The notes under the pieces were generated by a model, which was given only the letters and a program-made list of their open reading frames with translations, searched no databases and was not told the origin of the DNA. Of a stretch of DNA of 64,000 bases, positions 61,020 through 62,240 are shown one piece after another; within the stretch, counting starts at the first letter, position 1; each line of letters starts with the position of its first letter. This DNA comes from a virus, in IMG/VR virus record IMGVR_UViG_3300030616_000016, positions 70,561 to 134,560 of that record. One strand, written 5' to 3'. The position numbers were made by a program, and so were the translations under genes.

Positions 61020-62240
61020 CTATGTCAATTGTTCTGGAATAAGCTCGCTTTGATTTCTCCAATTTAGAGCTTGTTCCACTGTTTTGATATTTTGTGGTAC
61101 GCATTCCATGTGCCATGTACCAATGCTTGGATTTAGCATTTTAAGATAAGGCCATTTGCCGGTCTCACCCTTCAGATCTACTACAACCAATTCATAATCT
61201 CCTTGCGTGTCCAGTGATTCAGCGCCCGTAGATTTGACAATTCGTTCTATACCTACCTTTCTTATAAACTCCCTACGGACTTCTGCATTATCAAGTTCTG
61301 CGAATTTAGCAGGGTCAATGTCATGCTCATTCGTTTCTGCTAACCACTGCGGAACTCGTACATTATTCAAATGCCACAGTCCCCAACCGTCCGCAAATTT
61401 TACAGACATTCCTCCATCTTTATGCAGATGACTGGCTTTCCAGTTTATTTCGATTGGATTCCGACTTACAATAGCAACATTTTTATACAGTGCGCTTGAG
61501 GATATTTTTCTGTTGTAATTTAGAAATATATCATATTTTTCTTTCTCATATTTAACGCCTATATATTTCCCAAACTCGTAAACTCCGCACCAATCATTCC
61601 ACCATATGTTTATATACTGCTCGGTTTTTAATTTGTTGGCACTAAGCCTGTCACGAAGGCTGTCACGAAGGCTGTCACGAAGGCTGGCATCAAGACTGTT
61701 ACGAAGACCGGCACTAAGACTATCATAAAAACTATTATGAAGACTGTCATAAAGACTGTTACGAATATTGTCATGAAGGCTGTTACGAAGACTTTTATGA
61801 AGACTGGCATAAAGACTGTCATAAAGACTGGCATAAAGTTTGTCATAAAGATTGTCATGGAGACTGTTACGAAGACTTTTACGAAGACTTTTACGAAGAC
61901 TGGCATCAAGACTGTAATAAAGACTGTCATAAAGACTGGTATAAAGTTTGTCATAAAGATTGTCATGGAGACTGTTACGAAGACTTTTATGAAGATTGTC
62001 ATGAAGATTGTTATGAAGATTGTCACTAAGCAAATGTTCTGTTAGTGCTGTTGTTAATGGGCTATCACAGATTATAATTTTAATGGCATTATCTGCACCA
62101 GTCATTTTTACAATAGGCAATACTGCGTGTTTAATTTCTTCATCACTGTATTGCGCCGATATGAGGTTTAAACAGCGATTTATATGTCTTGGTATCATTT
62201 TTTCTTGTTCTTTTGTTAAACTCATAATTTCCTCTTTCAT
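61020..62240 (-). CDS. protein with a central array of about 30 tetrapeptide repeats ([SNK]L[YHR]D) and a conserved C-terminal domain of about 200 aa
   Basis: Repeats are encoded by 12-bp tandem units at 61637-62025. The C-terminal coding sequence is duplicated at 63909-64000. Confidence 0.55.
   Translation of the reverse strand: MKEEIMSLTKEQEKMIPRHINRCLNLISAQYSDEEIKHAVLPIVKMTGADNAIKIIICDSPLTTALTEHLLSDNLHNNLHDNLHKSLRNSLHDNLYDKLYTSLYDSLYYSLDASLRKSLRKSLRNSLHDNLYDKLYASLYDSLYASLHKSLRNSLHDNIRNSLYDSLHNSFYDSLSAGLRNSLDASLRDSLRDSLRDRLSANKLKTEQYINIWWNDWCGVYEFGKYIGVKYEKEKYDIFLNYNRKISSSALYKNVAIVSRNPIEINWKASHLHKDGGMSVKFADGWGLWHLNNVRVPQWLAETNEHDIDPAKFAELDNAEVRREFIRKVGIERIVKSTGAESLDTQGDYELVVVDLKGETGKWPYLKMLNPSIGTWHMECVPQNIKTVEQALNWRNQSELIPEQLT
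61637..62025. repeat. 12-bp minisatellite (about 32 units, consensus AGACTGTCATAA/AGACTGTTACGA) inside a coding sequence
   Basis: seen directly. Confidence 0.8.

What the first reader, a model, noticed from the sequence alone, without database searches (positions are those of the whole stretch)
61020..62240. Gene containing a 12-bp minisatellite (about 32 tetrapeptide repeats) with a paralog beginning at the window edge
A perfect-phase 12-bp repeat array (61637-62025) encodes [S/N/K]-L-[Y/H/R]-D tetrads. Such arrays are prone to slippage or recombination and give copy-number variation. The conserved C-terminal coding sequence of about 200 aa is duplicated at 63909-64000. This suggests a pair of variable-length paralogs, which might be tail-fibre or spacer-like proteins whose length is tuned by repeat number, or a contingency locus.
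Basis: seen in the sequence. Interest (0 to 1): 0.5.

Follow-up and report, generated by a model that had tools for sequence, protein, structure and literature searches.

The report
Phage gene with hypervariable tetrapeptide-repeat stalk
A jumbo-phage gene of the uncharacterised DUF6745 family carries an in-frame 12-bp minisatellite (32 four-residue units); such arrays recur across this very large phage family, change length between otherwise identical alleles, and always sit beside one conserved small partner gene, so this looks like a rapidly evolving two-gene accessory module whose function is still unknown.

Summary
Window 61020-62240 (minus strand) encodes a 406-aa protein: an N-terminal domain, 32 in-phase tetrads (61641-62024, x-[S/N]-L-[R/Y/H]) and a C-terminal DUF6745 domain. 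The source contig (231.6 kb, phage-like) shows that the edge copy is an intact 371-aa paralog. It is 73% identical in the C-terminal domain but has no array.

New findings:
- The downstream 108-aa gene (60682-61008) is a near-obligate partner, adjacent on the same strand in 110 of 122 loci. The paralog keeps only a deletion remnant of it.
- About 43% of family representatives carry tetrad arrays of 4-68 units at the same junction.
- Alleles with 100% identical flanks differ by whole-tetrad indels.
- In 44 arrays, two codons per unit are invariant even at wobble sites, and the other two vary non-synonymously.

No solved structure resembles the core, and no paper mentions the family. The closest precedent is mycobacteriophage Tweety gp54, a non-homologous tetrapeptide-repeat counter-defence protein tuned by repeat number.

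The tail-fibre and on/off contingency readings are not supported. A length- and surface-variable helical stalk is plausible but unproven. Repeat-number variation was not testable for this gene itself.

The parts
61020..62240 (-). The repeat gene. It encodes a 406-aa DUF6745-family protein: N-terminal domain, tetrad array, C-terminal domain.
   Evidence: ORF. Pfam PF20530 scores 37.9 bits against a cut-off of 27. 154 homologs, the best at E = 9e-103. AF2 model with pLDDT 85.4.
62025..62240 (-). N-terminal conserved domain, aa 1-72 (LTKEQE ... IICDSP).
   Evidence: Conserved across the family; the consensus is LTxEQEA..KW..IGL.T.P.D...A....Y.......P......SP. pLDDT is 88-97.
61641..62024 (-). In-frame 12-bp minisatellite of 32 tetrads (aa 73-200), with a higher-order periodicity of 8-9 units.
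   Evidence: Predicted as two long helices, 72-126 and 131-199, at pLDDT 65-80.
61020..61640 (-). C-terminal alpha/beta domain (DUF6745), aa 201-406 plus the stop codon.
   Evidence: pLDDT is above 90. Nearly invariant residues include H272, D283, N317, E319, R321-R322, K327, N369-P370-S371, H376 and E378.
60682..61008 (-). Conserved partner gene, 108 aa. Motifs: QQGDVL, AEGxxTGHxH, H(E/Q)EH, PxGxY, EvDPFxxEi..V.D.
   Evidence: It starts 11 nt after the repeat gene's stop codon. phrog_27831. A homolog is adjacent on the same strand in 78/86 and 32/36 loci. Alignment A4.
63923..64000 (-). 3' end (last 25 codons plus stop) of the array-less paralog P0002. The full gene is 371 aa on the source contig.
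63842..63912 (-). Deletion remnant of a second partner gene, downstream of the paralog. ATGGAGAAA is followed by an early stop; the out-of-frame 3' piece encodes IVREVDPFKKEINMVRD*.
   Evidence: 63904-63943 matches 61000-61040 and 63861-63895 matches 60701-60735 (27/35). About 265 bp of the ORF are missing.
62237..62512 (-). Upstream 91-aa CxxC...CxxC gene. Its stop overlaps the repeat gene's ATG (ATGA), so the two are probably co-translated. It is not conserved next to homologs elsewhere.

Best explanation
The finding is the variable member of a duplicated two-gene phage accessory cassette, carried on a jumbo-phage-sized contig.

SHOWN
- The gene encodes a DUF6745-family protein. Its N- and C-terminal parts form the conserved core of a very large family found in phages and prophages.
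- A 12-bp in-frame minisatellite sits at the junction between the two parts. It encodes 32 tetrads of the form variable-[S/N]-Leu-variable.
- The same junction carries analogous arrays (4-68 units; x-[S/Q/N/A/K/E]-[V/L/I]-x) in roughly 40% of family representatives.
- These arrays gain and lose whole units between alleles whose flanks are identical.
- Within arrays, the hydrophobic codon and the codon before it are frozen even at wobble sites. Nearly all differences are amino-acid-changing substitutions in the other two codons.
- The gene is almost always adjacent to one small His-rich partner gene (here 60682-61008).

INFERRED
- The array folds into a protruding antiparallel two-helix stalk. 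Its conserved Ser/Leu seam packs the two arms together, and its exposed face displays the variable residues.
- Unequal recombination or slippage between 12-bp units (and the 96-108-bp blocks) changes stalk length by about 3 A per tetrad and reshuffles the surface pattern.
- Selection keeps unit types diverse while recombination homogenises everything else.

MOST LIKELY ROLE (inference)
A rapidly evolving recognition or 'tuning' element of an early-expressed module. It would act with the partner protein in phage-host or phage-phage conflict, by analogy with Tweety gp54. The array-less paralog would be a fixed-geometry version that shares the single intact partner.
For: Family and architecture:
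- Pfam and homolog matches.
- The family holds 16,837 50%-identity representatives at E <= 1e-3.
- Arrays at the same junction in 45/120 and 55/127 proteins.
- The same architecture occurs in M. abscessus prophage prophiGD102-1 gp38 (hhalign 99.9%).

Copy-number polymorphism:
- Identical flanks with clean in-register block indels, and the same variants seen in independent assemblies.
- Eight copies with different arrays in one Mb-scale MAG.

Codon pattern:
- In the window array the variable fourth codon of the tetrad has pS 0 and pN 0.44. Arg is 10/10 CGT against 13% genome-wide, and Leu is 28/30 CTT against 34%.
- In 44 independent arrays, the +1 codon has pN > pS in 42 and the +2 codon in 33. 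Variable nucleotides are positions 7, 8, 10 and 11 of the unit.

Partner gene:
- Adjacency in 78/86 and 32/36 loci, either order, same strand, often overlapping.
- No third gene family is shared between loci.

Structure:
- The window protein model has two helices, 72-126 and 131-199, flanked by confident domains.
- The repeat-less homolog P0044 models as one compact body (pLDDT 93.9, pTM 0.84), with the insertion point in a loop.

Context:
- Homologs lie among early, replication or accessory genes in a prophage, large phages, Ma-LMM01 and prophiGD102-1.

Precedent:
- Escape mutants of Tweety gp54 change repeat number: PMC9262239. The same codon-position pattern is described in PMC2884959.
Against: - More than half of the family, and this phage's own paralog, lack arrays. 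The array is therefore dispensable for the core function.
- The helical hairpin has only moderate confidence (pLDDT 65-80). A strict 4-residue hydrophobic period does not fit a canonical coiled coil. Many homolog arrays are Gly-rich, which disfavours helix.
- Most alleles come from metagenome assemblies, and assemblers can miscount tandem repeats.
- The window array is comparatively degenerate (13 distinct units among the 18 analysed, 76% identity), so it may currently be evolving slowly.
- Homology to Tweety gp54 is absent. The conflict role rests on analogy and gene context only.
Confidence: 0.5

Rival explanations
1. The array is a tolerated low-complexity expansion. It sits in a permissive surface loop of DUF6745, grows and shrinks by replication slippage, and has no adaptive role. 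The protein's function lies entirely in the N/C core and the partner.
For: - About 57% of representatives lack arrays.
- The paralog in the same phage lacks one.
- The insertion point is a loop in the repeat-less model.
- Length differs widely between near-identical alleles, as expected if length is unconstrained.
Against: - Neutral drift would spread differences over all 12 nucleotides, above all the wobble sites. Instead, variation is confined to the first two bases of two codons in 44 arrays.
- The x-polar-hydrophobic-x scheme recurs with different residues and codons across phyla at the same junction. This argues for a selected structure and a selected variable face.
Confidence: 0.22
2. 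It is a DNA-metabolism or replication accessory factor. The helical array acts as a rigid spacer or ruler, or as an oligomerisation rod, and not as a conflict interface. The core and partner would act on nucleic acid or nucleotides during early infection.
For: - Homologs lie next to DNA polymerase and UDG in Ma-LMM01.
- They lie after a RepA-like initiator in prophiGD102-1.
- They lie next to HNH and DNA methylase genes in a prophage.
- The core has a conserved basic helix, NAEVRREFVRKVG.
- The partner has His clusters compatible with a metal site, and weak Cupin_3 hits in 2 of 51 members.
Against: - Apart from the partner, no replication gene is consistently linked.
- A housekeeping ruler would not be expected to vary from 3.5 to 42.5 units between alleles with identical flanks.
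- No nucleic-acid-binding fold was detected.
Confidence: 0.18
3. It is a virion structural protein (tail fibre, whisker or spacer) whose length is set by repeat number.
For: Repeat-length-variable fibres exist in phages (general knowledge). The predicted long helices could form a rod.
Against: - There are no PHROG, Pfam or fold matches to structural proteins.
- The neighbours are small early-type ORFs, not structural genes.
- Homologs sit in early or replication regions of characterised phages and prophages.
- The N and C domains model as one globule with the array looping out.
Confidence: 0.04
4. It is a classical contingency (phase-variable on/off) locus, or a target of a diversity-generating retroelement.
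For: It is a tandem repeat inside a coding region. Hypervariation is limited to a few nucleotide positions.
Against: - The 12-bp unit keeps the frame after any slippage, and units are imperfect at 76%.
- No second (template) copy of the array exists in the 64-kb window.
- Variable bases are not restricted to adenine positions; for example, position 10 is C18/T10/G2/A2.
- The rest of the 231-kb contig was not examined for a reverse transcriptase.
Confidence: 0.03

Closest known systems
Pfam PF20530 (DUF6745) proteins, e.g. Microcystis phage Ma-LMM01 MAP_174 (BAF36265) and Mycobacterium abscessus prophage prophiGD102-1 gp38 (QSM05137)
   Same: They are homologous in the N- and C-terminal domains. 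They have the same adjacent partner gene: MAP_175 in Ma-LMM01 and gp37 in prophiGD102-1. gp38 also has about 55 [G/D]-Q-L-[G/R/W] tetrads at the same junction.
   Different: All are annotated only as hypothetical or DUF proteins, and no function, structure or paper was found. Ma-LMM01 MAP_174 has no tetrad array. The window protein uses its own unit flavour (S/N-L with R/Y/H and D/N/A/K). Its array is more diverged than most.
Mycobacteriophage Tweety gp54 (with Che8 gp57 and PMC gp51): tetrapeptide-repeat counter-defence protein
   Same: - It has a central in-frame 12-bp array (48, 26 and 15 units in the three phages) between unique N and C regions.
- Two residues of the tetrad are invariant and two variable, with wobble positions invariant (PMC2884959).
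- Repeat number changes between relatives.
- Escape mutants that overcome the Phrann gp29/gp30 defence gain or lose repeats (PMC9262239).
- It lies in an early-lytic region near WhiB, endonuclease and methylase genes.
   Different: - It is not homologous: hhalign probability is 0.1, there is no DUF6745 hit, and no partner homolog lies in the Tweety locus.
- Its unit is A-A-[G/W/Q]-[S/Y], with no hydrophobic Leu/Val position, and was proposed to be unstructured.
- Its flanks are a 140-aa N region and a 45-aa C region, not a split globular core.
Pentapeptide-repeat proteins (Pfam PF00805; quadrilateral beta-helix, e.g. Qnr/MfpA-type)
   Same: They are short-period coding repeats with one invariant hydrophobic residue per unit. 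Two such genes (15-bp units) lie within 2 kb of the finding in the same operon-like run.
   Different: The period is 5, not 4, and the fold is a beta-helix, whereas the tetrad array is predicted helical. There is no Pfam Pentapeptide hit to the repeat gene.

Membership tests
DUF6745 (Pfam PF20530) family | Match to the Pfam model above its gathering threshold | tested here: met
   37.9 bits against a cut-off of 27, E = 1.5e-9, residues 252-356. The paralog P0002 scores 29.5 bits.
DUF6745 (Pfam PF20530) family | Full-length homology, including the N-terminal LTxEQ...SP domain and the C-terminal ...LT end | tested here: met
   154 hits, the best at E = 9e-103, all carrying PF20530. Alignment consensus. 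The family profile scores the window ORF at E = 5.8e-117.
DUF6745 (Pfam PF20530) family | Adjacent same-strand small partner gene (QQGDVL / GHxH / HEEH). This feature was defined here, not by Pfam. | tested here: met
   The partner is window 60682-61008. The association holds in 78/86 and 32/36 loci.
Tweety gp54-like tetrapeptide-repeat counter-defence proteins | Central in-frame 12-bp/tetrapeptide array between unique N and C regions, with variation concentrated in first and second codon positions of two codons | tested here: met
   The description of gp54 is in PMC2884959.
Tweety gp54-like tetrapeptide-repeat counter-defence proteins | Sequence homology of the flanking regions to gp54 | tested here: not met
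   hhalign probability 0.1. There is no shared Pfam family. Neither the DUF6745 nor the partner HMM hits anything in the Tweety locus.
Tweety gp54-like tetrapeptide-repeat counter-defence proteins | Repeat number differs between close relatives | tested here: inconclusive
   Met for seven clusters of DUF6745 homologs. Not testable for the window gene itself, because only one contig carries it and IMG/VR holds no close relative.
Tweety gp54-like tetrapeptide-repeat counter-defence proteins | Neutralises a host or prophage defence system in a repeat-number-dependent way | not testable with these tools
   This requires genetics; it is known for gp54 only (PMC9262239).
Tail fibre / virion structural protein | Similarity to structural proteins, or location in a structural gene module | tested here: not met
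   PHROG gives only phrog_31813, of unknown function. There are no PDB or BFVD structural-protein matches. Neighbours are small non-structural ORFs.
Simple-sequence contingency locus (phase variation) | Repeat unit whose gain or loss shifts the frame or alters a promoter; near-perfect units | tested here: not met
   The unit is 12 bp, with 0% indels and 76% identity between units. All homolog alleles differ by multiples of 4 residues.
Diversity-generating retroelement target | A template repeat and reverse transcriptase nearby, with adenine-specific substitutions | tested here: not met
   No second copy of the array exists in the window. Variable sites are not adenine-restricted. Only 64 kb of the 231 kb were inspected.

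The most novel reading that the evidence does not exclude
The DUF6745 protein and its small His-rich partner form a widespread, so far unrecognised, phage-borne recognition or counter-defence system. Its specificity would be 'tuned' at population level by an in-frame minisatellite. Recombination between 12-bp units changes stalk length and shuffles a small alphabet of surface residues (typically R/W/G and D/A), and selection maintains diversity at exactly two codons per unit. This would generalise the single Tweety gp54 case to thousands of phages across bacterial phyla, and possibly archaea.
Probability: 0.3. Interest if true: 0.8.

Novelty: new variant of a known kind. Interest (0 to 1): 0.6.

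Why it matters
If the reading is right, a Pfam 'domain of unknown function' with about 17,000 sequence clusters is half of a conserved two-gene phage cassette. That cassette would carry one of the clearest signatures of ongoing diversification seen in phage accessory genes: minisatellites frozen at 8-10 of 12 nucleotides and hypervariable at the rest. This would extend a mechanism shown in only one mycobacteriophage protein, tuning of a counter-defence protein by tetrapeptide-repeat number, to phages of many phyla.

It also offers concrete experiments. The cassette is small and portable, and natural allelic series already exist. For genome annotation, two points follow. These arrays are hot spots for assembly error. 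The partner gene has no Pfam or NCBIfam match here and deserves a family of its own.

Tried and rejected
- Near-identical DNA search of 12 kb against INPHARED phages: no match.
- tblastn of the protein against phages: one weak hit only.
- IMG/VR search for close relatives of the gene: none. Repeat-number variation of this exact gene could therefore not be tested.
- NCBIfam, PADLOC and PDB-sequence searches for the repeat protein, homologs and partner: nothing meaningful.
- Pfam on 51 partner proteins: only sub-threshold Cupin_3 and 2OG-oxygenase hints.
- Homology to Tweety gp54: rejected.
- Domain fusions in long family members: only tandem duplications, longer arrays and a MORN-variant-like repeat fusion. 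None is functionally informative.
- Search for a third conserved neighbour: none.
- Literature searches for DUF6745 and PF20530: zero papers. The primary Dedrick et al. 2017 paper was not held, so the review PMC9262239 is cited instead.
- ORFs on the opposite strand and in other frames across the array (61628-62026 and 61737-62045) are by-products of the repeat and were disregarded.
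Full report
**1. What is in the window**

The minus strand of 61020-62240 holds a 406-aa ORF. Tandem Repeats Finder reports a 12-bp array at 61640-62030: 32.6 copies, 76% matches, no indels. Higher-order periods of 96 and 108 bp match at 80-84%.

Read in the gene's frame, the array is 32 tetrads at aa 73-200, which is window 61641-62024. Position 3 is Leu in 30 of 32 units and position 2 is Ser in 22 or Asn in 6. The flanking positions vary: D/N/A/K at position 1 and R/Y/H at position 4. Mean unit identity rises at lags of 8-9 units, 79% against about 70%. 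This points to recent block duplications.

A second copy of the gene's last 25 codons, its stop and its 3' flank lies at 63904-64000, at 92% identity.

**2. The genome and the paralog**

An exact-sequence look-up places the gene on a 231,593-bp metagenomic contig, ENA ERZ27252234 k141_1275754. The window is uniformly about 36% GC. All 24 ORFs of 250 aa or more lie on the minus strand. PHROG matches include helicases, an RNA-polymerase beta-like subunit, a TnpB-type transposase and NAMPT. A jumbo phage is the most likely source.

The contig shows that the edge copy is an intact 371-aa gene, P0002. Compared with the repeat gene:
- the C-terminal domain is 141/194 identical;
- the N-terminal domain is 22/67 identical;
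- the middle is unrelated and non-repetitive, apart from about 9 degenerate tetrads (lag-4 hydrophobicity autocorrelation 0.5).

Nucleotide identity climbs from 52% to 92% towards the 3' end. But this is also not a pair of variable arrays.

**3. The family**

The C-terminal part matches Pfam DUF6745 above threshold. A 5.8-billion-protein search returned 154 homologs, all with that domain. A profile search of 1.84 billion cluster representatives found 16,837 at E <= 1e-3 and 4,104 at E <= 1e-30.

The architecture has three parts: a roughly 70-aa N-terminal domain, a variable junction, and a roughly 200-aa C-terminal domain. Tetrad arrays occupy the junction in 45 of the 120 first hits. They also occupy it in 55 of 127 representatives found with a core-only profile, a sample not biased by the repeat. 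Arrays run from 4 to 68 units. Each lineage has its own fixed pair, such as S-L, S-V, Q-V, Q-L, N-L, K-V or E-V, and a small alphabet at the two other positions, most often R/W/G and D/A.

Named members include Microcystis phage Ma-LMM01 MAP_174, which has no array. Another is M. abscessus prophage prophiGD102-1 gp38, with about 55 [G/D]QL[G/R/W] units and hhalign probability 99.9%. Genome hits span Acidobacteriota, Bacteroidota, Planctomycetota, Nitrospirota, Clostridia, Treponemataceae, Patescibacteria and one Woesearchaeota MAG. No paper in the searchable library mentions DUF6745 or PF20530.

**4. Copy-number variation**

This could not be tested for the window gene itself, because a single contig carries it and IMG/VR holds no close relative. 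It is direct for the family.

In seven 90%-identity clusters, the first 60 and last 200 residues are 100% identical while lengths differ by whole tetrads. Examples are 432/440/404/392 aa, 427/479/343/347 aa and 386/378/418 aa. Laid out in register, the alleles differ by clean block insertions or deletions of 1 to 21 units, plus a few substitutions at the variable positions. Identical variants recur in independent ENA and JGI assemblies.

One Ca. Marinacidobacterales MAG, with contigs of 5.87 and 0.66 Mb, carries eight copies in elements 95-98% identical over kilobases. Their arrays differ in length and composition. Assembly error remains a caveat for short-read contigs.

**5. Signature inside the arrays**

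In the window array the wobble positions are nearly uniform. Arg is CGT in 10 of 10 cases, against 13% of Arg codons genome-wide. Leu is CTT in 28 of 30, against 34%. Asp is GAC in 13 of 14, against 34%. The units therefore share recent ancestry, and this is not codon bias. Yet position 4 has pN 0.44 with pS 0, and position 1 has pN 0.41 with pS 0.28.

The pattern is general across 44 independent arrays for which DNA was available:
- The hydrophobic codon and the one before it are invariant, with median pS = pN = 0.
- The next codon has median pN 0.38 and pS 0, and pN exceeds pS in 42 of 44 arrays.
- The fourth codon has pN 0.21, and pN exceeds pS in 33 of 44.

At nucleotide level, variation is confined to unit positions 7 (43 of 44 arrays), 8 (32), 11 (29) and 10 (16). 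Many arrays vary at just two nucleotides, for example TCC GTC [T/A/G]GG G[C/A]C. The Tweety paper described the same pattern for gp54 (PMC2884959).

My inference is that recombination and slippage keep homogenising the arrays, while selection, or less likely a targeted process, maintains diversity at two residues per unit. A DGR is unlikely. The window holds no template copy, and the variable bases are not adenine-specific.

**6. A conserved partner gene**

The 108-aa gene immediately downstream (60682-61008; phrog_27831, no Pfam hit) has homologs next to DUF6745 genes in every context first inspected. An HMM built from four of them finds a same-strand adjacent homolog in 78 of 86 loci. These include Ma-LMM01 MAP_175 and prophiGD102-1 gp37. 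It also finds one in 32 of 36 GTDB loci.

The partner lies downstream in 51 cases and upstream in 23, with gaps of -46 to +230 nt. Most exceptions are genes cut by a contig end. All-against-all clustering of neighbouring ORFs shows that no third family is shared. This is a self-contained two-gene cassette in changing surroundings.

The partner has invariant G9, H46, H78 and C-terminal D108. Its motifs are QQGDVL, AEGExTGHxH, H(E/Q)EH and PxGxY...EYDHFxEE.R.V.D. Nothing matches it in PDB sequences, NCBIfam or PADLOC, and only sub-threshold cupin hints appear.

Downstream of the paralog, the partner survives only as a remnant. The intergenic region plus ATGGAGAAA (63904-63943) is joined to the last roughly 50 nt, which encode IVREVDPFKKEI. 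About 265 bp are missing. The duplication therefore copied the whole cassette, and one partner copy was later lost.

**7. Structure**

The AF2 model of the window protein has mean pLDDT 85.4. Its N- and C-domains are confident, above 90. The array is modelled as two long helices, 72-126 and 131-199, at pLDDT 65-80.

The repeat-less homolog P0044 models as one compact body (pLDDT 93.9, pTM 0.84), with the junction in a surface loop. Together these suggest that the array loops out as an antiparallel stalk and does not separate two domains. On this reading each added tetrad lengthens the stalk by about 3 A (inference).

Two cautions apply. A strict period of 4 does not give a canonical coiled-coil seam, and Gly-rich arrays in homologs are poor helix formers.

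**8. Interpretation**

Shown:
- family membership;
- the two-gene cassette;
- the family-wide recurrence of arrays, their length polymorphism and their codon-specific hypervariability;
- the intact but array-less paralog.

Inferred:
- the helical stalk with a conserved seam and a variable face;
- expansion and contraction by unequal recombination or slippage;
- a role as a rapidly evolving interaction element.

Gene context is early, replication or accessory in a prophage next to HNH and methylase genes, and in about 180-kb phages near a Gad2 anti-defence gene. The same holds for Ma-LMM01 and prophiGD102-1.

The only experimentally studied analogue is Tweety gp54, where gain or loss of tetrapeptide repeats tunes a counter-defence against Phrann gp29/gp30 (PMC9262239). 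It is not homologous, so the conflict role is an analogy and not a membership.

Rivals are listed with their tests: a tolerated neutral expansion, a replication-associated ruler, a structural fibre, and phase variation or a DGR. The first two remain live. The last two are poorly supported.

**9. Verdict**

The gene is a new, rather diverged member of a catalogued but unstudied family. The family-level features found here are, as far as the searchable literature shows, undescribed. These are the obligate partner, the recurrent hypervariable tetrad arrays and the natural allelic series. They make a testable candidate for a widespread tunable phage module.

Noticed in passing
window 60682-61008 (-) and 63842-63912 (-): The small gene downstream of the repeat gene is a near-universal partner of DUF6745 genes (110 of 122 loci), with invariant His residues and no Pfam, NCBIfam or PADLOC match here. 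The paralog at the window edge keeps only an internally deleted remnant of it.
   Followed up: yes
window 59154-59615 (-) and 60332-60634 (-): Two more short-period coding repeats lie in the same gene run. One is a Pfam Pentapeptide-repeat protein with a 15-bp array at 59482-59560. The other is a 100-aa ORF with a 15-bp array at 60459-60554 encoding [D/N]-I-S-A-x pentads, with no family match. Three repeat-bearing small genes therefore sit within 3 kb.
   Followed up: partly
window 63014-63274 (-): An 86-aa ORF is made of MORN-variant-like units (HRxxGPA...G..xW..NG..H). It gives a weak hit (E = 2e-5) to the DUF6745 profile. One genomic homolog (L122) fuses a long run of such units to the DUF6745 C-terminus. 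The beta-hairpin part of DUF6745 may therefore derive from this repeat type.
   Followed up: partly
L092-L098 and L103 (Ca. Marinacidobacterales MAG CBDFHB01): One genome carries eight copies of the cassette inside elements that are 95-98% identical over several kb, each with a different tetrad array. They are probably a family of related prophages or another multi-copy mobile element.
   Followed up: partly
window 21900-23117 (-), 33888-35558 (-), 44039-45196 (-): The phage contig encodes a TnpB/IS200-605-type transposase (phrog_506, E = 1e-133), an RNA-polymerase beta-like subunit (phrog_3295) typical of jumbo phages, and a nicotinamide phosphoribosyltransferase (phrog_448). The last could belong to an NAD+-replenishing anti-defence pathway.
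   Followed up: no
window 58074-62512 (-), gene ends: Consecutive small genes end in similar acidic tails (...KDGEQ, ...WKDGEQ, ...PQEDGE, ...EQEDAE, ...GSEQ) and overlap the next start codon (ATGA). A 28-nt stretch at 62240-62267 recurs at 59108-59135 at 96% identity. The shared tails probably reflect ribosome-binding sites embedded in the upstream coding ends, that is, translational coupling.
   Followed up: no
L007 (ENA ERZ21831265 ctg79774l, 77 kb): Two complete cassettes (P0070 and P0073, each with its partner) lie 4 kb apart among bacterial-looking genes: radical SAM, TetR, a response regulator and ARPP-1. Duplicated cassettes are therefore not unique to this phage.
   Followed up: no
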